Below the pieces are notes generated by a model, which was given only the letters and a program-made list of their open reading frames with translations, was not told the origin of the DNA and made no database searches. A program made the position numbers and the translations under genes. Of a DNA stretch of 33,753 nt, positions 13,937 through 33,207 are shown piece after piece. Numbering within the stretch: position 1 is the first letter of the stretch; each line of letters begins with the position of its first letter. This DNA is from a virus. The stretch is taken from the UHGV virus genome UHGV-0114643; one strand, written 5' to 3'.

Positions 13937-14016
13937 CTCCGTTTAGCTCAGTTTGGTTTAGCAGCACTTGCTTTGGGAGCAAGGGGTCGAGGGTTCAAAT
14001 CCTTCAACGGAGACCA
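13937..14016 (+). tRNA. tRNA-Pro (anticodon TGG), CCA encoded
   Basis: 7-bp acceptor stem CTCCGTT/AACGGAG, T-arm GAGGG-TTCAAAT-CCTTC, anticodon loop TTTGGGA. Confidence 0.8.
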
Positions 14017-14022
14017 AATTAT

Positions 14023-14100
14023 ATTCCCGTAGACAAATTAGGTAAAGTCAACACCCTTTCAAGGTGTGGTTTGAGGGTTCAAGTCCCTTCGGGAATGCCA
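14023..14100 (+). tRNA. tRNA-Glu (anticodon TTC), CCA encoded
   Basis: Perfect acceptor stem ATTCCCG/CGGGAAT, T-arm, anticodon loop CTTTCAA. Confidence 0.85.
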
Positions 14101-14107
14101 GTTTTGA

Positions 14108-14177
14108 CAGAAGACCAATTACAGCAAACAAACTTTTCAATTTCGCGCATAGAAATCCAAAAAAGATTTGGTCTGGT
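14108..14177 (+). repeat. inter-tRNA element a (CAGAAGACC ... GGTCTGGT family); candidate small structured RNA
   Basis: Shares 5' (CAGAAGACC-N-ACAGCAA) and 3' (GGTCTGGT) ends with three other spacers; terminal 5-bp helix AGACC/GGTCT. Confidence 0.6.
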
Positions 14178-14187
14178 CATTAAGAAT

Positions 14188-14264
14188 TGCGGGTATAGAG
14201 AAAGGGTGTCTCACATGTCTCATTAGCATGTTATCGGTAGGTTCGACTCCTACACCCGCCTCCA
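14188..14264 (+). tRNA. tRNA with CAT anticodon (Met, fMet or Ile2), atypical (U1:C72 mismatch, U at position 37)
   Basis: Acceptor TGCGGGT/ACCCGCC, T-arm GTAGG-TTCGACT-CCTAC, anticodon arm CATGT-CTCATTA-GCATG, CCA encoded. Confidence 0.55.
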
Positions 14265-14270
14265 AATTTA

Positions 14271-14336
14271 CAGAAGACCGTTTACAGCAAACACTTAAAA
14301 TTTTTTATAGGAAAAAATGAAAAGATACGGTCTGGT
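14271..14336 (+). repeat. inter-tRNA element b (CAGAAGACC ... GGTCTGGT family)
   Basis: Direct repeat of the element termini. Confidence 0.6.
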
Positions 14337-14347
14337 AATACTAATAT

Positions 14348-14424
14348 GGTTAGGAAGCACATAAGGCATGTGCGGTCGGCTGTTAACCGAATGGTACAGG
14401 GTTCGAATCCCTGACTAACCGCCA
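14348..14424 (+). tRNA. tRNA-Asn (anticodon GTT)
   Basis: Acceptor GGTTAGG/ACTAACC, D-stem GCAC/GTGC, anticodon loop CTGTTAA, T-arm CAGGG-TTCGAAT-CCCTG, CCA encoded. Confidence 0.8.
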
Positions 14425-14493
14425 AGATTTGGGAGAGAAGTGATTGCTCACCGATTTGTAAGGTGCAAGTCCTTAGCCTGAATAGAATAAAAT

Positions 14494-14581
14494 GCGTCGT
14501 TATCCCGTAGATGGAAGCGGTGGTGACTGTAAATCACTTGTCATTATGACTCGGTAGGTTCGACTCCTTCACGGCGCACCA
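14494..14581 (+). tRNA. tRNA-Tyr (anticodon GTA), long variable arm
   Basis: Acceptor GCGTCGT/ACGGCGC, anticodon arm GGTGA-CTGTAAA-TCACT, variable-arm hairpin, T-arm, CCA encoded. Confidence 0.8.
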
Positions 14582-14587
14582 AATAAA

Positions 14588-14664
14588 GGTTATGTAGTTT
14601 AACTGGTCAAAATACCTCCCTGTCACGGAGGATGATGAGGGTTCGAATCCCTTCGTAACCGCCA
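14588..14664 (+). tRNA. tRNA-Asp (anticodon GTC)
   Basis: Acceptor GGTTATG/CGTAACC, D-stem GTTT/AAAT, anticodon arm CCTCC-CTGTCAC-GGAGG, T-arm GAGGG-TTCGAAT-CCCTT, CCA encoded. Confidence 0.85.
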
Positions 14665-14725
14665 AATTTGAGAGGGCTTGTTAGCCCCTCCCTTAAAGAG
14701 TTCTTACGAGTATTCTTTAAAGGAG

Positions 14726-14800
14726 CAGAAGACCAAATACAGCAAGCAATTTTAATATTTCAAGCCAATTTAATTTGAAAAATTTAAAACTTGGTCTGGT
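14726..14800 (+). repeat. inter-tRNA element c (CAGAAGACC ... GGTCTGGT family)
   Basis: Direct repeat of the element termini. Confidence 0.6.
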
Positions 14801-14813
14801 TCCAACAATTTTA

Positions 14814-14940
14814 CAGAAGACCGTTTACAGCAAACAATAAACAATCTATTTCTCTGGTAAAGAAAAGGCGAAGGTTCGATTCCTTCACACGTTACGGCGT
14901 GTTGGTGTAATGGAAGCACTTAAGATAAATACGGTCTGGT
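14814..14940 (+). repeat. inter-tRNA element d (127 nt) with internal T-arm mimic (GAAGG-TTCGATT-CCTTC) and D-arm-like hairpin; candidate Y-RNA-like ncRNA
   Basis: Same termini as a-c; tRNA-like motifs present but no acceptor stem pairing, so not a tRNA. Confidence 0.5.
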
Positions 14941-15089
14941 AATCCTCTTTGCAGTGACTTATGGAGCTAATATGTCGTCCCATGAGTGCCGATGAGTTTC
15001 TTGAGCATGATTCTAGATTAGCTTACTAAGAGACAACTCTACAAACCCTTTAGCAAGGTTTGCGTAGGTTACTGCAAAGATGATTTAAT

Positions 15090-15165
15090 GGAAGTGTAGC
15101 AGAATGGTGATGCGGCAGACTTTTAATCTGACAGGCGACGGGTTCGAATCCCTCCACTTCTACCA
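15090..15165 (+). tRNA. tRNA-Lys (anticodon TTT)
   Basis: Acceptor GGAAGTG/CACTTCT, anticodon loop CTTTTAA, T-loop GGGTTCGAATCCC, CCA encoded. Confidence 0.8.
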
Positions 15166-15246
15166 AATTCGCCCCTTAACTGAAGAACACATGCGCGGCT
15201 GGAAACACCCACTCAATCAGTTCTCTACAAAGGGGCAACTTATAAT

Positions 15247-15323
15247 GGTTCAGTCGCAGATAAGGTAATGCAAGGGTTTCATAAGCCCTATGAATGTGGG
15301 TTCGATTCCCACCTGAACCTCCA
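15247..15323 (+). tRNA. tRNA-Met (anticodon CAT; could be initiator or Ile2)
   Basis: Perfect acceptor GGTTCAG/CTGAACC, anticodon arm AGGGT-TTCATAA-GCCCT, T-arm GTGGG-TTCGATT-CCCAC, CCA encoded. Confidence 0.8.
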
Positions 15324-15325
15324 AT

Positions 15326-15400
15326 TGTGGGTTAGCATAAATGGTAATGCAAACGGCTGATAACCGTTAGAAGAGGGTTCGATACCCTCACCTACAACCA
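15326..15400 (+). tRNA. tRNA-Ile (anticodon GAT)
   Basis: Acceptor TGTGGGT/ACCTACA, D-stem GCAT/ATGC, anticodon arm AACGG-CTGATAA-CCGTT, T-arm GAGGG-TTCGATA-CCCTC, CCA encoded. Confidence 0.85.
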
Positions 15401-15414
15401 ATTTCATAAAGTTG

Positions 15415-15443
15415 TTGACATTCAGATGTGACCACTTTAAGAT
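15415..15443 (+). promoter_or_regulatory. internal promoter-like element (TTGACA-N17-TAAGAT) inside the tRNA array
   Basis: Exact -35, 17-nt spacer, 4/6 at -10. Confidence 0.35.
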
Positions 15444-15676
15444 AACCTTAGTTTTCGTTAGCGTAGCGTCTATTTTAAAAACTTAAAAATAAATGCAAAC
15501 GATAATGTTTTTCTGGCAGTAGCTTAATAGGCTAAACACCAGCAGGGTATTCCAACTCCCTGTTAAAGAATTTGGCGTACTAGCCCACGGTATGATTAAT
15601 AAAGTGGGCAATATTCTAAAGAGCATCCCTTAAGGGGCTTGGCTTAAATGCAATGAGTGCTCTTTAAAATATTAAT

Positions 15677-15752
15677 GCTCCGTTAGTCTAAAGGATAGGC
15701 AACTGTCTTCTAAACAGTTCATATATAGGTTCGAGTCCTATACGGAGTGCCA
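15677..15752 (+). tRNA. tRNA-Arg (anticodon TCT)
   Basis: Acceptor GCTCCGT/ACGGAGT, D-stem GTCT/AGGC, anticodon arm ACTGT-CTTCTAA-ACAGT, T-arm ATAGG-TTCGAGT-CCTAT, CCA encoded. Confidence 0.85.
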
Positions 15753-15813
15753 ATTCTAATGGTCAAGACAACACGAGTAAGTTATCTTAGATACGCGTTA
15801 AGAGATAAACGAA

Positions 15814-15881
15814 AGTCGGAAAGTTGCTGAAGGGTAGCTCCCTTCGATAGTAAGTAGGTTCGACTCCTACCTTGACTGCCA
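15814..15881 (+). tRNA. tRNA-like element, probably degenerate or interrupted (canonical T-arm and 3' end with CCA, but no D-arm; a perfect 5' acceptor partner GGTCAAG lies at 15761-15767)
   Basis: T-arm GTAGG-TTCGACT-CCTAC and 3' strand CTTGACT-G-CCA; only 65 nt from the nearest 5' partner, 118 nt from the perfect one. Confidence 0.3.
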
Positions 15882-16046
15882 AATAGTTAGCAGATTACTA
15901 CGACGACCTTTATGGGTCTCCGCATTGACTTGAAAGAGTCAATCTCATAAGGAGGTGGTCTGTATCTCATGTTTTCCAGAACATGTAAATAATCTGAGAA
16001 GAAGCTTGACAGTGTTGAGATAACAGGGTAAGCTTCGAAATATAGT

Positions 16047-16129
16047 ATGGGACGATGTTAAGACACTAAGGCATGTGCGTAAGCCTCCAAAACTTACTCA
16101 AAGGGGTTCGAATCCTCCGTCCCATGCCA
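16047..16129 (+). tRNA. atypical tRNA, candidate tRNA-Trp (CCA inside a 9-nt anticodon loop CCUCCAAAA; D region ~7 nt too long)
   Basis: Perfect acceptor ATGGGAC/GTCCCAT, T-loop GGGGTTCGAATCC, CCA encoded; Trp is the only amino acid otherwise missing from the array. Confidence 0.45.
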
Positions 16130-16142
16130 AAGTCTTATTAGG

Positions 16143-16230
16143 GGTAGGTAGCGGCTAATGGAAGCCAAACTGTCTTGAAAACAGTTGCCATTGTAGAGAT
16201 ACGGTGAGGGTTCGACTCCTTTATCTACCG
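16143..16230 (+). tRNA. tRNA-Ser (anticodon TGA), long variable arm; 3' CCA not encoded (CCT follows)
   Basis: Acceptor GGTAGGT/ATCTACC, anticodon arm ACTGT-CTTGAAA-ACAGT, 20-nt variable arm, T-arm GAGGG-TTCGACT-CCTTT. Confidence 0.75.
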
Positions 16231-16485
16231 CCTAATAAGATTTAAAGCTGAGACTCGCTGTTCGGGCAAGTGTTTCAGGTTTCCTCTTCGTGTATTGGCG
16301 TACACGGCACTGGTAAAACACCTAGTAGGTGTCACGGAGAAGAGATAGTATCAAGCTCTCCAAAGGTTCTAGTCACCGGATTAAACAAGACTATGCAAAG
16401 GCCAATAGGTCTTTTTAGAGAATTGTTAAGATGTTTAATACCATTGTTGCTTTGGTGTCTTAGCAGTTCTCTACAAAGATTTAAT

Positions 16486-16562
16486 GCACCTATAGCCCAA
16501 CTGGAAGAGGCAGCAGACTTAGAATCTGCTCAGTGTGAGTTCGAATCTCTCTAGGTGTACCA
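16486..16562 (+). tRNA. tRNA with Leu anticodon TAG, class-II-like D-arm but short variable loop
   Basis: Acceptor GCACCTA/TAGGTGT, anticodon arm GCAGA-CTTAGAA-TCTGC, discriminator A, CCA encoded. Confidence 0.7.
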
Positions 16563-16569
16563 AATTAAT

Positions 16570-16645
16570 GCAGGTGTAGCAAAATGGTTATGCGGCTGAC
16601 TCTTAATCAGTAAGACGATGGGTTCAATTCCCTCCACCTGTACCA
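16570..16645 (+). tRNA. tRNA-Lys (anticodon CTT)
   Basis: Acceptor GCAGGTG/CACCTGT, anticodon loop CTCTTAA, T-loop GGGTTCAATTCCC, CCA encoded. Confidence 0.8.
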
Positions 16646-16651
16646 AACAAT

Positions 16652-16727
16652 GGGGATGTAGTTTACATGGTTAAAACATAAGTTTTGCAAACTTAAGTAC
16701 AGGGTTCAATTCCCTGCTTCTCCACCA
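16652..16727 (+). tRNA. tRNA-Ala (anticodon TGC) with G3:U70 identity pair
   Basis: Acceptor GGGGATG/CTTCTCC, D-stem GTTT/AAAC, anticodon arm TAAGT-TTTGCAA-ACTTA, T-arm CAGGG-TTCAATT-CCCTG, CCA encoded. Confidence 0.85.
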
Positions 16728-16733
16728 ATTAGT

Positions 16734-16808
16734 GCATCCATAGTTTAAACGGGAAAATTACAGTCTTCCAAACTGAGGTTGAGGGTTCGATTCCCTCTGG
16801 ATGCTCCA
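16734..16808 (+). tRNA. tRNA-Gly (anticodon TCC)
   Basis: Perfect acceptor GCATCCA/TGGATGC, anticodon loop CTTCCAA, T-arm GAGGG-TTCGATT-CCCTC, CCA encoded. Confidence 0.85.
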
Positions 16809-16814
16809 AATAAT

Positions 16815-16890
16815 GCTCTTATCGTATAATTGGCTATTACGGTTGCCTTGTAAGCAACTTATCAGGGTTCGAATCCTTGTGGGAGCACCA
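16815..16890 (+). tRNA. tRNA-Thr (anticodon TGT)
   Basis: Acceptor GCTCTTA/TGGGAGC, anticodon arm GTTGC-CTTGTAA-GCAAC, T-arm CAGGG-TTCGAAT-CCTTG, CCA encoded. Confidence 0.85.
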
Positions 16891-16987
16891 ATTTTGAGGT
16901 CAAGTGAAAGACCGCTTGAGTCAACTGAAGACCGTAACAAATTCCACGGAGTTGAGTTAGCGGCACAGCTTCAGACCTCTTTTCAAA

Positions 16988-17062
16988 GCTCGCTTAGTTT
17001 ATATGGTAAAGCCCCATCCTTACAAGTTGGTGAAGAAGGTTCAAGTCCTTCAGCGAGTACCA
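16988..17062 (+). tRNA. tRNA-Val (anticodon TAC)
   Basis: Acceptor GCTCGCT/AGCGAGT, D-stem GTTT/AAGC, anticodon loop CTTACAA, T-arm GAAGG-TTCAAGT-CCTTC, CCA encoded. Confidence 0.75.
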
Positions 17063-17063
17063 A

Positions 17064-17141
17064 GTTCCAGTATCCCAATTGGCAGAGGATGCAAGCTCAA
17101 ACCTTGTATTAGTGACGGTTCGAATCCGTCTTGGAACACCA
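17064..17141 (+). tRNA. tRNA with Leu anticodon CAA, class-II-like D-arm (3-bp stem, CAATTGGCAGA loop) but short variable loop
   Basis: Acceptor GTTCCAG/TTGGAAC, anticodon arm GCAAG-CTCAAAC-CTTGT, T-arm GACGG-TTCGAAT-CCGTC, discriminator A, CCA encoded. Confidence 0.7.
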
Positions 17142-17156
17142 AATTAGGAGATTCCT

Positions 17157-17369
17157 ATGAAGCCTTATGGTAGACATGGTAAAGTTGAAATTGCAAGTTG
17201 TGGTTGCTGTGCTTCTCACGATGGTGAAGAAGATTACTACAAGTGGCGTACAGACCATCGTAAACGCTTTCTCAGAAGAGATAAGAAGAAAGCTAGACAG
17301 GAATCTCGAAAGAATATTGCAGAATTAGTTCAAATGGATAGAACAGCAATCTACGAAGTTGTTTGTTAG
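17157..17369 (+). CDS. small basic Cys-containing hypothetical protein, 70 aa; last ~17 codons overlap tRNA-Arg
   Basis: ATG with AGGAGA 7 nt upstream; ORF in track; overlap makes the true extent uncertain. Confidence 0.35.
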   Translation: MKPYGRHGKVEIASCGCCASHDGEEDYYKWRTDHRKRFLRRDKKKARQESRKNIAELVQMDRTAIYEVVC

Positions 17370-17395
17370 GGGTTCGAATCCCTTATTCTGCACCA
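17319..17395 (+). tRNA. tRNA-Arg (anticodon ACG)
   Basis: Perfect acceptor GCAGAAT/ATTCTGC, D-stem GTTC/GAAC, anticodon arm GCAAT-CTACGAA-GTTGT, T-arm AGGGG-TTCGAAT-CCCTT, CCA encoded. Confidence 0.8.
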
Positions 17396-17413
17396 ATTTT
17401 AGAAGGTAATTAT

Positions 17414-17641
17414 ATGCGTAAACTCATTATTGAAAGGCATAAAGATGCTGACAAGATTGAAACAACACAAGTTGGGGACACTGACTTCATTCTTGTAGGT
17501 TGGAAATGTGACCCAATAGCAGCTATGAAGGTTGTTCATGGTTTTGCAGGAATTGAATTTAATCAAATCATATTTGAAACGCTATTACCAGAAAATCAGG
17601 ATACGTGTAATAACGCATATGTCCTGACAAGAGTTCGTTAG
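17414..17641 (+). CDS. hypothetical protein, 75 aa (paralogue A: MRKLIIERH ... DTCNNAYVLTRVR); start moved to the ATG with a proper RBS
   Basis: About 60% identical to 17686..17913; AGAAGG upstream of ATG. Confidence 0.5.
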   Translation: MRKLIIERHKDADKIETTQVGDTDFILVGWKCDPIAAMKVVHGFAGIEFNQIIFETLLPENQDTCNNAYVLTRVR

Positions 17642-17667
17642 GGGTTCGAATCCCTTATTCTGCACCA
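17633..17667 (+). pseudogene. tRNA 3' fragment (T-arm + acceptor 3' strand + CCA), identical to the 3' end of tRNA-Arg(ACG); duplication scar
   Basis: 30 of 31 nt identical to 17365-17395; no complementary 5' acceptor strand or D-arm upstream. Confidence 0.55.
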
Positions 17668-17685
17668 AATTTAAAAGGGTAACTT

Positions 17686-17913
17686 ATGTTTAAACTCATA
17701 GTTGAAAAACACCCAGAAGATGACAAGCTTGAAACAGGGAGATTTGGAGATACTTTCTTTATCAGAGTTGGCTGGAAAGCTGACCCATTAGAAGTTAGAA
17801 AGATTGTCTACAACTTTGCTGGTTTGGAATTAAAGCAAGTCATCTTTGAAACAATGTTGCCAGAAAATAAAGATACATGCAATAACGCATATATTCTTAC
17901 AAGAGTTAGTTAG
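17686..17913 (+). CDS. hypothetical protein, 75 aa (paralogue B: MFKLIVEKH ... DTCNNAYILTRVS)
   Basis: ORF in track; AAGGG upstream; paralogous to 17414..17641. Confidence 0.5.
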   Translation: MFKLIVEKHPEDDKLETGRFGDTFFIRVGWKADPLEVRKIVYNFAGLELKQVIFETMLPENKDTCNNAYILTRVS

Positions 17914-17987
17914 GGGATTAGTTTACAAGGTTAAAACCTCGGTCTTTGAAATCGAAGAAGTTGGTTCAATTCCAACATCCCCCGCCA
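17912..17987 (+). tRNA. tRNA-Gln (anticodon TTG); starts inside the stop codon of the preceding ORF
   Basis: Acceptor AGGGGAT/ATCCCCC (A1:C72), D-stem GTTT/AAAC, anticodon arm TCGGT-CTTTGAA-ATCGA, T-arm GTTGG-TTCAATT-CCAAC, CCA encoded. Confidence 0.8.
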
Positions 17988-17989
17988 AT

Positions 17990-18068
17990 GCTCCATTACT
18001 CCAATTGGCAGAGAGGCCAGACTTAAAATCTGTGTTATGTATCGGTTCGAATCCGATATGGAGTACCA
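17990..18068 (+). tRNA. tRNA with Leu anticodon TAA, class-II-like D-arm but short variable loop
   Basis: Perfect acceptor GCTCCAT/ATGGAGT, D-arm CTC-CAATTGGCA-GAG, anticodon arm CCAGA-CTTAAAA-TCTGT, T-arm ATCGG-TTCGAAT-CCGAT, discriminator A, CCA encoded. Confidence 0.7.
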
Positions 18069-18074
18069 AATATT

Positions 18075-18150
18075 AGCAGTGTAGCATAACTGGCAATGCT
18101 CCAGCCTCTGAAGCTGAATGATTAAGGTTCAAATCCTTACGCTGCTGCCA
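18075..18150 (+). tRNA. tRNA-Gln (anticodon CTG)
   Basis: Acceptor AGCAGTG/CGCTGCT, D-stem GCAT/ATGC, anticodon loop CTCTGAA, T-arm TAAGG-TTCAAAT-CCTTA, CCA encoded. Confidence 0.8.
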
Positions 18151-18181
18151 CTTCTAAGGGTTCTTACGAGAGTCCTTAAAT

Positions 18182-18255
18182 GTGGCCTTATCATAAATGG
18201 ACAATGACCCATGCTGTGAACATGGTCTATACGGGTTCGATTCCCGTAGGTCACC
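18182..18255 (+). tRNA. tRNA-His (anticodon GTG); 3' tail reads C-CCCCA rather than N-CCA and no obvious G-1
   Basis: Acceptor GTGGCCT/AGGTCAC, perfect D-stem TCAT/ATGA, anticodon arm CCATG-CTGTGAA-CATGG, T-arm ACGGG-TTCGATT-CCCGT. Confidence 0.7.
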
Positions 18256-18267
18256 CCCCAATTCAAT

Positions 18268-18343
18268 AGCTCAATTAGCTTATATGGTTAAAGCGCGTGT
18301 CTGAAAAACATGAGAACAGGGTTCAAATCCCGATGGGCTACCA
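18268..18343 (+). tRNA. tRNA-Phe (anticodon GAA), acceptor/T-stem register ambiguous
   Basis: D-stem GCTT/AAGC, anticodon arm CGTGT-CTGAAAA-ACATG, T-loop GGGTTCAAATCCC, 3' ...ACCA. Confidence 0.6.
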
Positions 18344-18359
18344 ATTTTATAGGTGCATA

Positions 18360-19094
18360 ATGAAAGAGATGACAGAACAAGGTAAAGAGATTTTTGGTCT
18401 CCTTAAATCTGGTAACGGGTTCTCTAACCCTCTTATTACTGGTGCAGCAGTTCTTGGTGGTACTGTAGCTGCCTCTCAATCATTAGTTAACTCAATTAGT
18501 TCTGTAACAGACCCAGCTACACAACAGATTTTAGTTGCTGCTGGACTGACAACAGCCTTATTAGGAAGCTTCACAACAAGCCTTGGAAGGACAACTTCAA
18601 CGACAAGTACACTCACTGAGTATGGACAAAAGTCTGTAGATGAGTTTTCACAACGTATGCAAGTAGCTAAGGGTTACTCTAATGTTATGGGAGCAGCAGG
18701 TGAACAGGTTGGATGTACACCGTTTAGTGGTATCATGGGCGTAGCTACCGAGTACGGTAATAAAGCGATGGATTTGATTAATACCTCCATAGACGCTGTA
18801 AATAGCGTTCTAAGCGATTTGCAAGATGCAATCGACCAAGGACTAGATACAATCTCTGAACTCGCTACACAGGCCGTTACAGCGATTAATGAGGGTATTG
18901 CAAAGATTACTGCATATGCTAATGAAGTAACTCAGATGATTGCAGATGAAGCAGCACTGATTGCAGAATACCTGAAAACAAATATTAATGGTTTCCTTGC
19001 GAATGTTCTACCAAGCTGGTTTGATGATTCATGTAAAACTGGTGTGATTGACACTATCGCAACTCCAGAGATGAAAGAAGCTCTGAACAAATAA
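18360..19094 (+). CDS. hypothetical protein (~244 aa), Ala/Thr/Ser/Gly-rich with hydrophobic N-terminal segment; start moved downstream of the tRNA
   Basis: Track ORF began inside tRNA-Phe; ATG at 18360 has AGGTG upstream. Confidence 0.5.
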   Translation: MKEMTEQGKEIFGLLKSGNGFSNPLITGAAVLGGTVAASQSLVNSISSVTDPATQQILVAAGLTTALLGSFTTSLGRTTSTTSTLTEYGQKSVDEFSQRMQVAKGYSNVMGAAGEQVGCTPFSGIMGVATEYGNKAMDLINTSIDAVNSVLSDLQDAIDQGLDTISELATQAVTAINEGIAKITAYANEVTQMIADEAALIAEYLKTNINGFLANVLPSWFDDSCKTGVIDTIATPEMKEALNK

Positions 19095-19095
19095 C

Positions 19096-19188
19096 GGAAG
19101 ATTAACCCTAAAAGGTAAGGGAGCAGTTTGCTAAACTGCCAGTAACCGAGAAATCGGCGTACCAGTTCAAGTCTGGTATCTTCCTCCA
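19096..19188 (+). tRNA. tRNA-Ser (anticodon GCT), long variable arm
   Basis: Perfect acceptor GGAAGAT/ATCTTCC, 3-bp D-stem, anticodon arm GCAGT-TTGCTAA-ACTGC, T-arm ACCAG-TTCAAGT-CTGGT, CCA encoded. Confidence 0.8.
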
Positions 19189-19194
19189 AATTAT

Positions 19195-19270
19195 GTGTCG
19201 GTGTCAGAAATGGTTATGTCCCTGTCTGCAAAACAGGTTTATGAGGGTTCGAGTCCCTTCCGATACTCCA
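19195..19270 (+). tRNA. tRNA-Cys (anticodon GCA)
   Basis: Acceptor GTGTCGG/CCGATAC, anticodon arm CCTGT-CTGCAAA-ACAGG, T-arm GAGGG-TTCGAGT-CCCTT, CCA encoded. Confidence 0.8.
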
Positions 19271-28442: not shown

Positions 28443-29795
28443 ATGTGGAATCCAATTGTTAATGTAGATATTACATTGAACACAGCAGGAACTACAAGAG
28501 AAGGTTTTGGTTTACCATTATTCCTTGCTTCAACAGATAACTTTGAAGAAAGAATCCGTGGTTATACTTCATTAACAGAAGTAGCTGAAGACTTTGATGA
28601 AAGTACTGCTGCGTATAAAGCTGCAAAACAGCTATGGAGCCAAACTCCAAAAGTAACTCAACTGTATATTGGTAGAAGAACTATGCAATATACTGTTTCT
28701 ATTCCTGACACAGTGGCTGAAGGAAGTGAATATTCATTGACAGTTGCTATCGGTGGTGGTGTTTCTCAGCCATTCCAGTACACTGCAAAAGAAGATGACA
28801 CAGCACTTATTGTCTTGAATGAGTTTAAATCACAGATTGAAGCAAGCCCAACAATTAAAGATGGTATCAATGTTAGTGTAACAGGTACTGGTGCTTCTGC
28901 GACGATGATTATTACTAAAGCTGGTGATAATGACTTCGTAAAAGTAACGTCTATTACACCTACAACATCTATTGCAGCAACAACTGCTGACACGGCTTCC
29001 GCTGCTCTGGCATCCATTGAAGCATATTCAACAGATTGGTACTTCATCTCAGCAGAAGACAGAACTCAACAGTTTGTCTTGGCAATGGCTTCAGAGATTC
29101 AGGCTCGTAAGAAGATTTTCTTCACAGCTAATGCTGACGTTAAGGCTCTGCAAGGCACTGATTTGACCTCTGCAACAGATGTTCCGGCACAGTTAGCTAA
29201 GAACAAGTACACTCGTACAGTTTGCTTGTGGCATCACACAGCCGAGTATGACTACCCAGAAATGGCTTACATCGCATATGGTGCTCCATATGATGCAGGT
29301 TCAATTGCTTGGGGTAACGCTCAATTAACTGGTGTTGCAGCATCTCTACAACCTGCTAATCAGAGACCACTGACAAGCATTCAGAAGTCAGCTTTAGACA
29401 CTCGTAGCTGTAACTTCATTGACCTCGATGGTGGGGTTCCTGTAGTGCGTAGAGGTATCACTTCTGGTGGTGAATGGATTGATATTGTACGTGGTGTTGA
29501 TTGGCTTGAATCTGATTTGAAAACATCTCTGAGAGACTTGCTAATTAATCAGAAGGGTGGTAAGATTACTTATGATGATACTGGTATTACCCGTATTCGT
29601 CAGGTCATTGAAACATCTCTTCAGCGAGCAGTTAACAGAAACTTTTTGTCAACTTACACCGTTACTGTTCCTAAAGCCTCACAAGTTGCATTGGCAGATA
29701 AGAAAGCACGTATCCTGAAAGACGTTACCTTCCACGGTATTCTTGCAGGGGCTATCTTGGATGTTGACTTGAAAGGCACAGTGGCTTACGAATAA
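28443..29795 (+). CDS. probable tail sheath protein (450 aa)
   Basis: Size and order (sheath, tube, terminator, frameshifted chaperone, tape measure) match P2/Mu-type contractile tail modules. Confidence 0.5.
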   Translation: MWNPIVNVDITLNTAGTTREGFGLPLFLASTDNFEERIRGYTSLTEVAEDFDESTAAYKAAKQLWSQTPKVTQLYIGRRTMQYTVSIPDTVAEGSEYSLTVAIGGGVSQPFQYTAKEDDTALIVLNEFKSQIEASPTIKDGINVSVTGTGASATMIITKAGDNDFVKVTSITPTTSIAATTADTASAALASIEAYSTDWYFISAEDRTQQFVLAMASEIQARKKIFFTANADVKALQGTDLTSATDVPAQLAKNKYTRTVCLWHHTAEYDYPEMAYIAYGAPYDAGSIAWGNAQLTGVAASLQPANQRPLTSIQKSALDTRSCNFIDLDGGVPVVRRGITSGGEWIDIVRGVDWLESDLKTSLRDLLINQKGGKITYDDTGITRIRQVIETSLQRAVNRNFLSTYTVTVPKASQVALADKKARILKDVTFHGILAGAILDVDLKGTVAYE

Positions 29796-29809: not shown

Positions 29810-30256
29810 ATGGCTATGTATCAGCAATATTCCCCTAAAGATGTAGTTTGTAGCTGGAATGGCATTGCCATTGAAGGTTTTGCACCAGACTCATTCTTGC
29901 GTCTTCAGAGAACTTCTCCACTTGTTACGCCAGTTGTAGGTGCAGGTGGTCAAGTAGCTCTGACAAGAAATGCAGACAAGACAGGTACGATTGAGATTGA
30001 GCTAATGCAGACTTCTCTATCAAACCAGATGCTTTCTGCAATTCAAGCTAAACAAGATGACATGGAACTTGAAGAAGATATCTCATCTAACTTTGTAATT
30101 TACGACCCATCTGGTTCAGTTCTGGCAACAGGTATTAATGCTTGGCTGCAAGAGCTTCCACAGATTGAATTAGGTCGTGACCAGAACTCGAAAACTTGGA
30201 TTTTCGGTTGTGAGAAGTTAGACTACACTTCAACAATCCCTGCGTCAAGCGTTTAA
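29810..30256 (+). CDS. probable tail tube protein (148 aa)
   Basis: Size and position after sheath; AAGGAG upstream. Confidence 0.5.
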   Translation: MAMYQQYSPKDVVCSWNGIAIEGFAPDSFLRLQRTSPLVTPVVGAGGQVALTRNADKTGTIEIELMQTSLSNQMLSAIQAKQDDMELEEDISSNFVIYDPSGSVLATGINAWLQELPQIELGRDQNSKTWIFGCEKLDYTSTIPASSV

Positions 30257-30269
30257 CAAATCCTAATAA

Positions 30270-30307
30270 GGGGGAGACTGTAAAAGGTCTTCCCCTTTTG
30301 TGTTTTT
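30270..30307 (+). terminator. rho-independent terminator (GGGGAGAC-N8-GTCTTCCCC + TTTTGTGTTTTT)
   Basis: 9-bp GC-rich stem and T-rich tail directly after the tube gene. Confidence 0.65.
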
Positions 30308-30332
30308 ATAGCATAACTTTTAAGGAATCACA

Positions 30333-30734
30333 ATGAAGACTGAAACTAAAATGATTAATGGCAAGAAGGTAACTATTATTCTTCTTGGAGCAAGAGATGG
30401 TATCCGTATCTCTATGAAACTTGGTAAAGCAGTTGTACCAGCATTTGCACAGATGTTCTCTGGTTTAACCTCTAAAGATGGGGAAGCTAAAATCCCATTT
30501 AAAGAACTCGTTGAAGCTTGCTTTGAAAAGGTTGATGAACTAGATATTGATGCAATGGCAGAGACACTATTTCAGGGGGCAACAGTTAATGACTTCCCAC
30601 TGAAAATTGATAGTTACTTCCAAGCGAACTACGGTGAATTTATTGACTTCTTAGCTTTTGCTTTGGAGGCAAACTTCGGAAGTTTTTTCGAGGCAAGCAT
30701 TTTCAAAAGCCTAACTTCTCAGCAGGAAGCTTAA
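30333..30734 (+). CDS. tail assembly chaperone (133 aa; lambda G / P2 E analogue)
   Basis: Position immediately upstream of tape measure gene; slippery heptamer near its 3' end. Confidence 0.55.
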   Translation: MKTETKMINGKKVTIILLGARDGIRISMKLGKAVVPAFAQMFSGLTSKDGEAKIPFKELVEACFEKVDELDIDAMAETLFQGATVNDFPLKIDSYFQANYGEFIDFLAFALEANFGSFFEASIFKSLTSQQEA

Positions 30735-30742
30735 GTTATTCT

Positions 30743-30970
30743 ATGCAGACCCCGCTGACTGACGGGGCTGTAAAGGCAACTTATGATGAAGCAGATGAGA
30801 TGAAATTTGTGCTTGCTATTTATGGTATGGATGGGTGTAAAGAAACACTCAACCAACTTTTTGATATGACCTTCGTTGATTTATTATCTCTACGTCAATA
30901 TTTAGAAATCCAGAAGTCATATAAAGAAGAAATGGCTTACAACGAACTCAGAAAAGCAGGTAAAATTTAA
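30743..30970 (+). CDS. -1 frame extension ORF of the tail chaperone (GT / E' analogue); probably expressed by frameshift rather than from its own ATG
   Basis: -1 frame is open from 30647 to 30970 and overlaps the chaperone 3' end; slippery site TTTTTTC at 30683-30689. Confidence 0.5.
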   Translation: MQTPLTDGAVKATYDEADEMKFVLAIYGMDGCKETLNQLFDMTFVDLLSLRQYLEIQKSYKEEMAYNELRKAGKI

Positions 30971-33207
30971 TGGCACAATATACAGTTGATAGTTTTATTG
31001 TTGAACTCGGATTCAGTGAAAAGGTTATTAAGGGTTTGCAAAGAGTTGAGAAAATGGCTATGCAGTCTGCTCAACGTATTGAACGCAATATCAATAAAGC
31101 CTTTGATGTGAAGCCTAATAGAAGTTCACAAGACGCTCTAAACAGACTTGTAAAAAACGCTCAGACTGCTTCAGGCAGAATCAATAAATCCCTAAACAAT
31201 GCTATGAATTTAGATTCACAAGGTGTAAAATCACTTCGTAGATTAGAAACACAGGGTAAGAAAACAGCCAAAGAAATTAATAAGGCTCTAAGACAAGCTA
31301 TGAATGTTGAAGGTAAAGTCAATGTTCGTGGTGGAGTTGGTAGAGGCCGTGGTAATACTATCCCTCCGGTTGGAGGTGGTGGTTCACCTAGAGTTAGACC
31401 TGATATTGCTCAAAGACAAATGGAAAGAATGTTTAATAACAACTTCTATTCTGGTTTGACTCGTCGTCTTGAAACAATTGGTGGACAAGGTAACCAAATG
31501 GCTACTTCCTTCAGAGGAAGCTTACAAGGAATCTATAATAAGTACAAAGGTAGTGGTAAAGTTGGTGAGTATGAGATGGAAGTCAAGAAACTCATTGACA
31601 CTACCAAACGTTGGGTTATTGCAGAAAATGCTAGACTTAAGGCAGTCAGAGAGTCAGCTTGGTTACAAGACAGAGCAAACTCTTCACTAAGACAGCTTGT
31701 AGGTGGTTTTGTTTCAGCGTATGCTATGCTGGAATTAGCTCAGAAGACTATTGATGCAGGTGTAAAGAGACAGTCTGCACAGTTAGCCTCAACAGCTATC
31801 TTTGGAGGGGATACACAGCAAGCTAGAATGTTCGCTGCTACGTTCTCTCACCAGATTGGTCAGAACTACACAGACACTATGAAGCAGTACTCAAACTTCG
31901 CTGCTGGTGCTCAACCAGAGTTAGGTTTTAAAGGAACTCAAGAGTTCTATAAGAATGCTGCTATGTTCTCACGTATTCGTGGTGCTTCTGATGAAGACTT
32001 GAAAGGTATCATGGTTGCTTTCCAGCAAATGGCATCTAAAGGTAAGATTCAGGCTGAAGAACTTCGTGGACAGTTAGGTGACCGTTTGGCAGGCGCTGTT
32101 CAGTTATTTGCTGATGCTATTGGTAAAACTCCACAAGAACTTGACAAGATGATGAAAGATGGTCAGCTTCTTGCAAAAGACGTTCTACCAAAAGTCTCAG
32201 AAAAAATGAGAGAGCTTGTTGAAGCAGCAGGTGGTATGAATGCAGTTTCTAAGCAGACAGCTACCTCTATGGGTCAAGCAAAGGCAATGTGGGATAACAC
32301 CCTTGTAGCTTTGTTTAACAACTCTAGCGAAGGTATTTCACAACTCTCTAACTCAGTTGCAATGTTCTTGCAAGGTTCCCTTGGTACATCTGAAGCACTT
32401 GGTACAGGTATTGGTTACCTCTTAAAAGGTGCTAGTAACCTCCTAGATTTCGTGACAGATATCATGTACCGCATTTCTTCATTGTACTACACCTCAATGG
32501 GTTATTTCAAGGAATTAGATGCTAGTCAACAGAAACTAATCAAGGACTCTGCTGAGTTAGTTGCTACGTTCACCGCTATCGGTGTTTCAATTGCAGCTAT
32601 TACAAAAGTTGCTAAAATCTTTGGTGGTACTGTAGCATTTGTCAAGAGTATTTTTGAAGAAGGTATCTTAGCTAAGATTGCACAGAAGTTTGGGTTAACT
32701 ACAGCAGCAGAAACAGCAGCTACAACGGCTGGTGTATCAGCAACCAGAATGGCTCTTGGTGTAGGTGGTTCTGCATTAATGTTATCTGGTTCAGTTGACA
32801 AGAATGCTGGAAAGAGATTTAACGAGGTTAACACACCTAATCCTTTCAATGAAGCTATCTCAGGAATCACTAATCCAAAACGTCCAATGTTCTTTGACCA
32901 GAATGGACAACTTCAGTTTGCACAATATACCACAGACCCTTCTGGAAATATTCAGAGGGTTGATAATGGTTTGTCAAATTGGGATATTATCATGAACAAC
33001 CTGTCTGAGTCTCTAAATAACTTTGCAAACAAGTTTAACCAGACACCTATGATGATGACTCCCTCTGGACTACCATTGCAAACTAAGCAGACGCTTCACG
33101 TTTCCTTTAATCTGGATGGTAAGCAGATTGCTACTAAGATGGTGGATATCACTGATAAGAGTCAGGAAGATATTCTGTTAAACTCTAGCTACCCAGAGGA
33201 TGAATAA
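30970..33207 (+). CDS. tail tape measure protein (745 aa)
   Basis: Largest ORF, directly after chaperone pair; helical/Gly-rich and hydrophobic segments. Confidence 0.7.

What the first reader, a model, noticed from the sequence alone, without database searches (positions are those of the whole stretch)
30647..30970. Programmed -1 frameshift site in the tail chaperone gene
The chaperone ORF (30333-30734) contains the canonical slippery heptamer T_TTT_TTC at 30683-30689 in the X_XXY_YYZ register. The -1 frame is open from 30647 to the TAA at 30968-30970, which overlaps the tape measure ATG. A -1 slip would yield a ~210-aa fusion; this is the conserved G/GT (lambda) or E/E' (P2) strategy.
Basis: partly seen in the sequence, partly recalled or inferred. 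Interest (0 to 1): 0.45.

Follow-up and report, generated by a model that had tools for sequence, protein, structure and literature searches.

The report
Tail chaperone gene frameshift site
This is the ordinary "slippery" spot at which some ribosomes probably slip back one base in a Felix O1-like phage's tail chaperone gene, making a longer second protein; the same site is already annotated in sister phages.

Summary
The window comes from a Mooglevirus (Ounavirinae, Felix O1-like myophage). Its gene order is sheath, tube, tail assembly chaperone (TAC, 30333-30734), a -1-frame ORF, then tape measure (30970-33207). T_TTT_TTC (30683-30689) lies in X_XXY_YYZ register. The -1 frame is open from 30647 to 30970. 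A -1 slip gives a 212-aa fusion (119 + 93 aa).

One window gives weak support: any in-register heptamer in the 29-codon overlap has P of about 0.06. Comparison with relatives gives strong support:
- The heptamer T_TTT_TTY is present at the homologous position in all 41 relatives scored, down to about 30% protein identity.
- It sits in the most conserved 21 nt of the locus.
- Variability moves from 0-frame to -1-frame third codon positions across it.
- The downstream ORF has no conserved start codon.

The fusion I predicted for phages Moogle and Mijalis with the same junction matches the deposited proteins exactly. A 2025 paper reports the conserved T-run across Andersonviridae. The feature is therefore already known, but only by prediction; I found no experimental test. 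I found no downstream RNA stimulator. A conserved GGAGG 13 nt upstream is a possible dnaX-like stimulator. Interest is low.

The parts
30333..30734 (+). Tail assembly (tape measure) chaperone gene, 0 frame, 133 aa (TAC-N; analogue of lambda G and P2 E)
   Evidence: ORF list. Pfam Phage_TAC_15, E = 7.5e-20. phrog_1613 'tail assembly chaperone', E = 1.8e-48. The exact 133-aa sequence is deposited as 'tape measure chaperone' in Mooglevirus phages.
30683..30689 (+). Slippery heptamer T_TTT_TTC in X_XXY_YYZ register (codons AGT TTT TTC = S117 F118 F119)
   Evidence: Sequence and register. Invariant in 33 unique Ounavirinae alleles, including the synonymous third positions 30683, 30686 and 30689. 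T_TTT_TTT sits at the homologous site in distant IMG/VR relatives. It is the only in-register T_TTT_TTC in the window's ORFs taken as genes.
30689..30970 (+). -1-frame extension: 93 codons plus TAA, giving the C-terminal domain of the 212-aa fusion (analogue of lambda T and P2 E'). RefSeq relatives annotate its last 75 codons (30743-30970) as a separate gene.
   Evidence: The -1 frame is open 30647-30970. phrog_4963, E = 9e-52. After the 0-frame stop, variability peaks at -1-frame third codon positions. Relatives have 91-94 codons after the heptamer in the -1 frame. No conserved start codon.
30665..30669 (+). GGAGG, a Shine-Dalgarno-like pentamer 13 nt 5' of the heptamer. Candidate upstream stimulator; inferred, not shown.
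   Evidence: Invariant in 30 of 33 unique alleles, including synonymous sites 30665 and 30668. Absent in Kolesnikvirus. AGGAG or GGGAG lies 11-12 nt upstream in L038-L040 and L042, although the amino acids there differ. GGAGG occurs at 2.6e-4 per nt in the window's ORFs. SD-like stimulators are searched 6-17 nt upstream in PMC4066793.
30970..33207 (+). Tape measure protein gene. Its ATG overlaps the TAA of the -1 ORF (TAATG).
   Evidence: PF20155 TMP_3, E = 7.7e-17. phrog_4036, full length.
29810..30256 (+). Tail tube gene (context: upstream neighbour of the TAC)
   Evidence: PF11681 KPP10_Orf10, E = 5.3e-7. phrog_280, E = 1.9e-47.
28443..29795 (+). Tail sheath gene (context)
   Evidence: PF11863 DUF3383, E = 5.7e-23. 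phrog_205 'tail sheath', E = 6.3e-119.
30268..30307 (+). Intrinsic-terminator-like hairpin plus T tract between the tube gene and the TAC gene
   Evidence: Consensus scan: 12-bp stem with 6 G-C pairs, then TTGTGTTTTT. A terminator is annotated at the same place in Mijalis and wV8.

Best explanation
This is a programmed -1 ribosomal frameshift in the tail assembly chaperone gene of a Mooglevirus myophage.

Proposed mechanism:
- Most ribosomes translate 30333-30734 and release the 133-aa chaperone.
- At AGU_UUU_UUC, the P-site and A-site tRNA-Phe (anticodon GAA) sit on UUU and UUC. A minority of ribosomes slip back one base and re-pair on UUU UUU.
- These ribosomes read CGA GGC AAG onward in the -1 frame and terminate at TAA 30968-30970.
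- The product is a 212-aa protein with the same first 119 residues and a different 93-residue C-terminal domain.

By analogy with lambda gpG/gpGT and P2 E/E+E', the shared N-terminal part would coat the tape measure protein. The rare C-terminal domain would recruit the tail tube protein. On that analogy the two products would be made in a fixed ratio and neither would end up in the virion.

Shown here: the anatomy, the register, the coding status of both frames and the conservation. Inferred: the slip itself, its efficiency and the roles of the proteins.
For: 1. Context. The order is sheath, tube, TAC, -1 ORF, tape measure, and each gene has family hits.

2. Heptamer conservation. T_TTT_TTC is in register and invariant in 33 unique alleles from Mooglevirus, Suspvirus, Felixounavirus, Kolesnikvirus and Pectobacterium phage Wc4-1. 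T_TTT_TTT occupies the homologous 'SFF/TFF' position in IMG/VR relatives at 29-35% identity. In L041 the preceding Ser codon AGT became Thr ACT but kept the T.

3. Conservation minimum. The lowest 21-nt mean entropy in the whole locus is 30680-30700: 0.063 bits against a mean of 0.47. The only DNA-level match to Erwinia phages is window 30672-30712.

4. Phase switch. Upstream of the heptamer, variability is highest at 0-frame third positions (0.887 against 0.44 and 0.31). After the 0-frame stop it is highest at -1-frame third positions (0.662 against 0.26 and 0.37).

5. Permissible shift window. Intersected over 41 sequences, it runs from 3 nt 5' to 33 nt 3' of the heptamer.

6. No conserved independent start. 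In phiEa21-4 the first start codon in the -1 frame comes 38 codons after the TAC stop, inside the conserved domain. The ATG positions differ between Mooglevirus and Felixounavirus.

7. Public annotation. The Moogle/Mijalis fusion predicted with this junction is an exact match to ARB06563.1 / YP_009145710.1. Mijalis carries a joined CDS. The frameshift is stated in PMC4319497 and PMC5543628. A conserved GTTTTT at the 3' end of TAC-N in 231 Andersonviridae genomes is reported in PMC12846349.

8. Motif efficiency. H_HH.U_UU.Y motifs, which include U_UUU_UUC, are among the efficient -1 motifs in E. coli (PMC4066793). P2's annotated site is T_TTT_TTG in the same register.
Against: - I found no experimental evidence (mass spectrometry, western blot or reporter assay) for any Ounavirinae phage in the literature I could search.
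- The heptamer alone is not statistically rare: P is about 0.06 for any in-register heptamer in the overlap.
- No 3' stimulatory structure was found. For 30690-30740 the z-score is -0.08; the consensus fold is only -4 kcal/mol with no covariation term; Rfam gave nothing. Lambda G/GT is described only as low-level frameshifting (PMC5009743); that it needs no 3' structure is from my own recall.
- In the 45-nt dual-coding stretch the two frames cannot be separated by conservation.
- An ATG at 30743 with AGGAAG 13 nt upstream could allow some independent initiation in this particular phage.
- The protein made by ribosomal slippage is identical to that made from an mRNA with one extra U. Sequence data therefore cannot separate the two mechanisms.
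Confidence: 0.88

Rival explanations
1. There are two independent genes. The 75-aa ORF (ATG 30743 to TAA 30970) is translated from its own start, as RefSeq annotates it in Sf14, Sf17, wV8 and others, and no frameshift occurs.
For: - The ATG at 30743 has AGGAAG (30724-30729) 13 nt upstream.
- Many records annotate two separate 'tail assembly chaperone' CDSs.
- The exact 75-aa sequence is deposited many times.
Against: - The start codon is not conserved in position. wV8 uses a different ATG. phiEa21-4 has no start codon for 38 codons after the TAC stop, although the conserved domain starts before that. In phiEa21-4 and Wc4-1 the depositors annotated no gene at all in the roughly 235-nt gap.
- The 13-nt spacer is long for a ribosome-binding site.
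- This reading does not explain the invariant heptamer at synonymous sites, the conservation minimum centred on it, or the -1 frame always opening upstream of it.
Confidence: 0.05
2. RNA polymerase slips on the T6 run (T7 in distant relatives). A fraction of the mRNAs carry one extra U, and standard translation of these yields the same 212-aa protein.
For: - The conserved element is a homopolymeric T-run whose length varies among lineages: T5 in L043, T6 here, and T7 in L038-L042.
- A conserved GTTTTT motif is reported in Vandenendeviridae and Andersonviridae.
- The title of the T4-like TAC paper cited in PMC12846349 (ref. [quoted passage not shown]
- The protein product would be indistinguishable.
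- UUUUUUU is under-represented in all frames in E. coli, possibly because of slippage (PMC4066793).
Against: - Productive transcriptional slippage in bacteria is described for runs of about 9 A or T (PMC5009743). This run has six.
- The run is always in the exact X_XXY_YYZ register, and the T at the X position is kept even when the codon changes from Ser to Thr in L041. That fits tRNA re-pairing. A longer run also helps slippage, however, so this does not decide the matter.
- U_UUU_UUC is an experimentally shift-prone ribosomal motif in E. coli.
Confidence: 0.06
3. The shift occurs at a different site in the overlap: the U_UUC tetramer at 30701-30704 (ATT TTC). This would give ...EASIF|QKPNF... 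in the same -1 frame.
For: - U_UU.C is the second most shift-prone tetramer in E. coli when a strong stimulator is present.
- The site lies inside the permissible window.
- It is conserved in most Ounavirinae.
Against: [quoted passage not shown]
- The motif is absent in Wc4-1 (GCT ATC CTG) and in L038-L042, whereas the heptamer is universal.
Confidence: 0.02

Closest known systems
Annotated tape measure chaperone frameshift of Citrobacter phages Moogle, Mijalis and Michonne (Mooglevirus)
   Same: - These are orthologous genes: about 91% nucleotide identity over the module.
- The heptamer and flanks are identical.
- The deposited 212-aa Moogle/Mijalis protein equals the fusion predicted with this junction.
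- The frameshift is stated in PMC4319497 and PMC5543628.
   Different: - A few amino-acid substitutions.
- The window's nearest relatives (KMM2, Henu11, Sf14) annotate two separate genes or hypothetical proteins.
- The window's own 212-aa sequence is not deposited.
Phage P2 E / E+E' (Peduovirus, myophage)
   Same: - A contractile-tail phage, with the chaperone gene between the tube gene (FII) and the tape measure gene (T).
- A -1 shift at T_TTT_TTG in the same register, preceded by a codon ending in GT.
- The -1 ORF ends overlapping the tape measure start.
   Different: - No detectable sequence similarity.
- P2's products are smaller: 91 and 142 aa, against 133 and 212 aa.
- The last base of the heptamer is G, not C, so the A-site tRNA is Leu rather than Phe.
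- P2's frameshift efficiency is reported as 2- to 3-fold that of lambda (PMC5009743). Here the efficiency is unknown.
Phage lambda G / GT
   Same: - The same strategy and gene position: between the major tail protein gene V and the tape measure gene H.
- Low-level -1 frameshifting.
- The function of the two products has been worked out for lambda (PMC5009743).
   Different: - A siphophage.
- The heptamer is G_GGA_AAG, read by tRNA-Gly and tRNA-Lys.
- No significant sequence similarity: best local E = 0.08 over 24 N-terminal residues.
- A different Pfam family.
Conserved GTTTTT site in TAC-N genes of Vandenendeviridae (Pakpunavirus) and Andersonviridae (PMC12846349, 2025)
   Same: The same T-run near the 3' end of TAC-N and an uninterrupted -1 frame up to the tape measure gene. 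The paper explicitly covers 231 Andersonviridae genomes, the family that contains Ounavirinae.
   Different: That paper describes a 6-nt GTTTTT motif and is also purely comparative. Here the full heptamer T_TTT_TTY, its register and the phase switch were checked for this locus.
E. coli dnaX -1 frameshift cassette
   Same: An XXXYYYZ heptamer with a Shine-Dalgarno-like element upstream. Here that is GGAGG, 13 nt 5' of the heptamer and within the 6-17 nt range used in PMC4066793.
   Different: No 3' stem-loop. The heptamer differs. The role of the SD-like element is untested and it is missing in Kolesnikvirus and L041.

Membership tests
Tail assembly chaperone programmed -1 frameshift (lambda G/GT-type strategy, Xu, Hendrix and Duda 2004) | Two overlapping ORFs lying between the major tail/tube gene and the tape measure gene | tested here: met
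   Tube 29810-30256, TAC 30333-30734, -1 ORF to 30970, tape measure 30970-33207. Family hits; ORFs.
Tail assembly chaperone programmed -1 frameshift (lambda G/GT-type strategy, Xu, Hendrix and Duda 2004) | The downstream ORF is in the -1 frame relative to the chaperone ORF and overlaps its 3' end | tested here: met
   The -1 frame is open from 30647, giving an 88-nt overlap. The same arrangement is found in all relatives.
Tail assembly chaperone programmed -1 frameshift (lambda G/GT-type strategy, Xu, Hendrix and Duda 2004) | A shift-prone X_XXY_YYZ heptamer in the correct register inside the overlap | tested here: met
   T_TTT_TTC at 30683-30689. This motif class is efficient in E. coli (PMC4066793).
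Tail assembly chaperone programmed -1 frameshift (lambda G/GT-type strategy, Xu, Hendrix and Duda 2004) | Slip site and frame arrangement conserved among diverged relatives, beyond what the protein sequence requires | tested here: met
   41 of 41 scored sequences carry T_TTT_TTY at the homologous site. Synonymous sites are invariant. The conservation minimum is at 30680-30700. Variability switches phase across the site.
Tail assembly chaperone programmed -1 frameshift (lambda G/GT-type strategy, Xu, Hendrix and Duda 2004) | The downstream ORF lacks its own conserved translation start | tested here: met
   ATG positions differ between genera. phiEa21-4 has none for 38 codons after the TAC stop. 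In this window an ATG at 30743 does exist.
Tail assembly chaperone programmed -1 frameshift (lambda G/GT-type strategy, Xu, Hendrix and Duda 2004) | Both a short and a long product are made, in a fixed low ratio | not testable with these tools
   Needs a western blot, mass spectrometry or a reporter assay. I found no such data for Ounavirinae in the papers searched.
Tail assembly chaperone programmed -1 frameshift (lambda G/GT-type strategy, Xu, Hendrix and Duda 2004) | Both products are needed for tail assembly: the N domain binds the tape measure protein, the C domain binds the tube protein, and both are absent from virions | not testable with these tools
   Inferred only from lambda (PMC5009743). 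The single-sequence AlphaFold model was unusable, with pLDDT 33.7.
Pfam Phage_TAC_15 (PF21822) / phrog_1613 | Score above the curated cut-off over the whole domain | tested here: met
   72.2 bits against a cut-off of 22, covering residues 9-122 of the protein and positions 1-124 of the 127-position profile. phrog_1613, E = 1.8e-48.
dnaX-type cassette (upstream SD + heptamer + 3' stem-loop) | SD-like element 6-17 nt upstream of the heptamer | tested here: inconclusive
   GGAGG lies 13 nt upstream and is conserved in 30 of 33 alleles and at synonymous sites. It is absent in Kolesnikvirus and L041.
dnaX-type cassette (upstream SD + heptamer + 3' stem-loop) | A stable, conserved 3' stem-loop or pseudoknot 5-9 nt downstream | tested here: not met
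   z-scores of -0.08, 0.85, -0.30 and 0.39 in four lineages. The consensus structure is -4.0 kcal/mol with a covariation term of +0.19. No Rfam match.
Programmed transcriptional slippage | A homopolymeric A or T run of about 9 or more | tested here: not met
   The run is T6 here and T7 in distant relatives. The threshold is taken from PMC5009743.

The most novel reading that the evidence does not exclude
This frameshift may be tuned by a 5' Shine-Dalgarno-like rRNA-pairing element rather than by any 3' structure. The candidate is GGAGG 13 nt upstream here, and AGGAG or GGGAG 11-12 nt upstream in relatives with only about 30% identity, where the amino acids at those codons differ. Its loss in Kolesnikvirus would then mark a lineage with a different short-to-long chaperone ratio. 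This would be a dnaX-like 5' stimulator in a phage tail chaperone gene. As a less likely alternative, the T-run could work through RNA polymerase slippage.
Probability: 0.3. Interest if true: 0.3.

Novelty: already known. Interest (0 to 1): 0.1.

Why it matters
The practical value is in annotation. The window's closest deposited relatives (KMM2, Henu11, Sf14 and most Felixounavirus records) list a 133-aa and a 75-aa "chaperone" or "hypothetical protein" as separate genes. Erwinia and Pectobacterium relatives leave the region unannotated. The correct gene model is a 133-aa product plus a 212-aa frameshift fusion. Biologically it adds one more well-conserved instance of a long-established rule and opens no new question. 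The only mildly open points are what sets the efficiency (the upstream GGAGG?) and whether the slip is ribosomal or transcriptional.

Tried and rejected
- **3' stimulatory structure.** I folded 30690-30740, 30690-30780 and 30660-30780, and the equivalent 51 nt of wV8, phiEa21-4 and Wc4-1. None was more stable than shuffles. The RNAalifold consensus of 7 lineages is -4 kcal/mol.
- **Hairpin at about 30746-30771.** The sequence is CAGACCCCG...CGGGGCTG. It has a few compensatory changes, but it begins about 57 nt past the heptamer and is degraded in Felixounavirus. I rejected it as a canonical stimulator.
- **Rfam.** A permissive scan of 30250-31050 gave only chance-level hits.
- **Solved structures.** A sequence search with the fusion protein found nothing.
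- **AlphaFold2.** A single-sequence prediction of the fusion gave pLDDT 33.7 and was unusable, so I ran no fold search.
- **Similarity to known chaperones.** BLASTP against P2 E and lambda G showed no significant similarity.
- **Other canonical heptamers in the overlap.** There are none.
- **The +1 frame.** It closes within a few codons in all relatives tested.
- **Vladimirov et al. 2022.** This paper on T4-like chaperones could not be read because it is not held.

Full report
**What the window is.** The 4.9 kb around the finding is 99% identical to Citrobacter phage BSwM KMM2 and to Shigella phages Henu11 and Sf14. It is about 91% identical to Citrobacter phages Moogle and Mijalis, and about 80% identical to Felixounavirus genomes. 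These are Ounavirinae, Felix O1-like myophages, now placed in the family Andersonviridae. The local gene order is:
- sheath, 28443-29795 (DUF3383, phrog_205);
- tube, 29810-30256 (KPP10_Orf10, phrog_280);
- a terminator-like hairpin, 30268-30297;
- the chaperone ORF, 30333-30734 (Pfam Phage_TAC_15, E = 7.5e-20; phrog_1613);
- a -1-frame ORF ending at 30970 (phrog_4963, 'tail assembly chaperone', E = 9e-52);
- the tape measure gene, 30970-33207 (TMP_3, phrog_4036).

**Checking the observation.** Every coordinate is right.
- The chaperone's codons start at positions divisible by 3. The local reading is GGA AGT TTT TTC GAG, so T30683_TTT_TTC30689 is in X_XXY_YYZ register.
- The -1 frame is open from 30647 to TAA 30968-30970, which shares one base with the tape measure ATG.
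- A -1 slip gives 119 + 93 = 212 aa.

Judged on this window alone, the heptamer is only weakly significant.
- TTTTTTC occurs 9 times in the window against 14.7 expected.
- Any in-register heptamer in a 29-codon overlap has P of about 0.06.
- It is, however, the only in-register T_TTT_TTC in 7552 codon positions of the long ORFs I took as genes.
- Twelve of the 14 Phe-Phe dipeptides in those ORFs begin with TTC, although TTT and TTC are used 50:50 overall. The phage seems to avoid this motif elsewhere.
- The 108-codon open -1 frame compares with a maximum of 47 codons for -1-frame open runs inside the other ORFs.

**Comparative evidence.** I extracted the locus from annotated relatives: Sf14, Mijalis, Silverhawkium, phiSUSP1, wV8, Erwinia phage phiEa21-4 and Pectobacterium phage Wc4-1. 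I added 36 IMG/VR loci.
- All 41 scored sequences carry T_TTT_TTC (37) or T_TTT_TTT (4) at the homologous position, after a conserved ...NYGE...F.LE.NF.SFF motif. Each has 91-94 codons after the heptamer in the -1 frame, ending at or just before the tape measure start.
- This holds for relatives with only 29-35% protein identity (L038-L041).
- In L041 the Ser codon AGT has become Thr ACT but keeps the T at position X.
- Among 33 unique Ounavirinae alleles, AAGTTTTTTCGA is invariant.
- The lowest 21-nt mean entropy of the whole locus is 30680-30700: 0.063 bits against a mean of 0.47.
- The only stretch that still aligns at DNA level with Erwinia phages is window 30672-30712.
- Variability peaks at 0-frame third codon positions upstream of the site (0.887 against 0.443 and 0.309 bits). 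After the 0-frame stop it peaks at -1-frame third positions (0.662 against 0.261 and 0.367). Both frames are therefore coding and the hand-over lies between them.
- The -1 frame opens between 3 and 45 nt upstream of the heptamer, never downstream of it. The 0-frame stop comes 33-99 nt after it. The only interval in which a shift is possible in every lineage runs from 3 nt before to 33 nt after the heptamer.

**Independent initiation.** In this window an ATG at 30743, with AGGAAG 13 nt upstream, could start a 75-aa protein, and RefSeq annotates it so in Sf14 and wV8. Several observations argue against this:
- wV8 uses a different ATG.
- phiEa21-4 has no start codon in this frame for 38 codons after the chaperone stop, well inside the conserved domain.
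- In phiEa21-4 and Wc4-1 the region is simply left unannotated.

I give the two-gene reading about 5%.

**Prior knowledge.** Mijalis carries a joined 'tape measure chaperone' CDS. The fusion I built for Moogle and Mijalis with the junction ...GSFF|RGKHF... is an exact match to the deposited ARB06563.1 / AIW03804.1 / YP_009145710.1. Michonne also has a 212-aa entry. The Moogle and Mijalis genome announcements state the frameshift (PMC4319497, PMC5543628). A December 2025 paper reports a conserved GTTTTT near the 3' end of TAC-N in 231 Andersonviridae genomes and cites the Moogle annotation (PMC12846349). The window's own 212-aa sequence is not deposited, because its nearest relatives annotate two genes. 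The feature is thus already known by prediction. I found no experimental test in this group.

**Mechanism.** U_UUU_UUC belongs to the H_HH.U_UU.Y class, which is among the most efficient -1 motifs in E. coli. It shifts above 0.1% without stimulators (PMC4066793). Both codons are read by tRNA-Phe(GAA).

I found no 3' stimulator. Folding energies of the 51 nt after the site are no better than shuffles in four lineages. The consensus structure is -4 kcal/mol with no covariation support. Rfam has no match. From my own knowledge, lambda G/GT also works at a few percent without a 3' structure.

A possible 5' stimulator exists. GGAGG at 30665-30669 lies 13 nt upstream. It is invariant in 30 of 33 alleles, including two synonymous sites where the window's codon usage would favour other bases: GAG is 33% of Glu codons, and Leu codons ending in G are 33%. 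AGGAG or GGGAG sits 11-12 nt upstream in L038-L040 and L042, although the amino acids there differ. It is missing in Kolesnikvirus and L041. GGAGG occurs at only 2.6e-4 per nt in the window's ORFs. This is suggestive, not shown.

**Other rivals.**
- *Transcriptional slippage on the T-run.* It would give the same protein and cannot be excluded from sequence. Six T's is well below the run of about 9 described for productive bacterial slippage (PMC5009743). About 6%.
- *The U_UUC tetramer at 30701-30704.* It is a possible secondary site, but it is absent in Wc4-1 and the distant relatives, and tetramers need a strong stimulator. About 2%.

**Comparison with the classics.** I read these from the records rather than from memory.
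- P2 E/E+E' shifts at GGT_TTT_TTG, i.e. T_TTT_TTG in the same register, between the tube and tape measure genes.
- Lambda uses G_GGA_AAG.
- Neither chaperone shows significant sequence similarity to this one.

This is therefore the same strategy in a different protein family (Phage_TAC_15). Functional roles are inferred from lambda (PMC5009743): the N domain on the tape measure, and the C domain recruiting the tube protein. An attempt to model the fusion from a single sequence failed (pLDDT 33.7).

**Verdict.** The novelty class is 'already known'. Interest is low, at 0.1. The useful outcome is a corrected gene model for this phage and its many relatives that are annotated with two genes.

Noticed in passing
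window 30665-30669: GGAGG lies 13 nt upstream of the slippery heptamer. It is conserved at synonymous sites in 30 of 33 alleles. SD-like AGGAG or GGGAG sits at 11-12 nt in distant relatives, where the amino acids at those codons differ. It is absent in Kolesnikvirus and L041. It may be a dnaX-like 5' frameshift stimulator.
   Followed up: partly
window 30268-30307: A strong terminator-like hairpin (12-bp stem plus T tract) lies between the tube gene and the chaperone gene. A terminator is annotated at the same place in Mijalis and wV8. It would lower chaperone and tape measure expression relative to sheath and tube.
   Followed up: partly
window 13937-19270: An array of 25 tRNA genes. It includes tRNA-Phe(GAA) at 18268-18343, the tRNA that decodes both codons of the slip site, and tRNA-Arg(ACG) at 17319-17395, which would read the first -1-frame codon CGA. 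Whether phage tRNA supply affects shift efficiency is unknown.
   Followed up: no
window 30746-30771: A local hairpin, CAGACCCCG...CGGGGCTG, starts just after ATG 30743, about 57 nt past the heptamer. It shows a few compensatory changes among relatives but is degraded in Felixounavirus. It is too far away to be a canonical frameshift stimulator, and its role, if any, is unknown.
   Followed up: partly
long ORFs across the window taken as genes: Phe-Phe dipeptides avoid TTT as the first codon: 12 of 14 use TTC, although TTT and TTC are used 50:50 overall. This is consistent with selection against accidental slippery T-runs outside the chaperone gene.
   Followed up: partly
window 30701-30704: A U_UUC tetramer (ATT TTC) lies in the overlap and could allow a minor alternative -1 shift into the same frame. 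It is conserved in most Ounavirinae but not in Wc4-1 or the distant relatives.
   Followed up: partly
L003 1570-1805 (Erwinia phage phiEa21-4); L004 1726-1960 (Pectobacterium phage Wc4-1): In both deposited records the roughly 235 nt between the chaperone and the tape measure gene carry no annotated gene. They encode the conserved -1-frame C-terminal domain, so this is a gap in the public annotation.
   Followed up: yes
L043 about 1540-1560 (IMG/VR relative, 25% identity): The most distant relative has only CTT TTT (a U_UUU tetramer, T5) at the homologous position and a 247-nt -1 overlap. The T-run length thus varies from 5 to 7 across the wider family.
   Followed up: no
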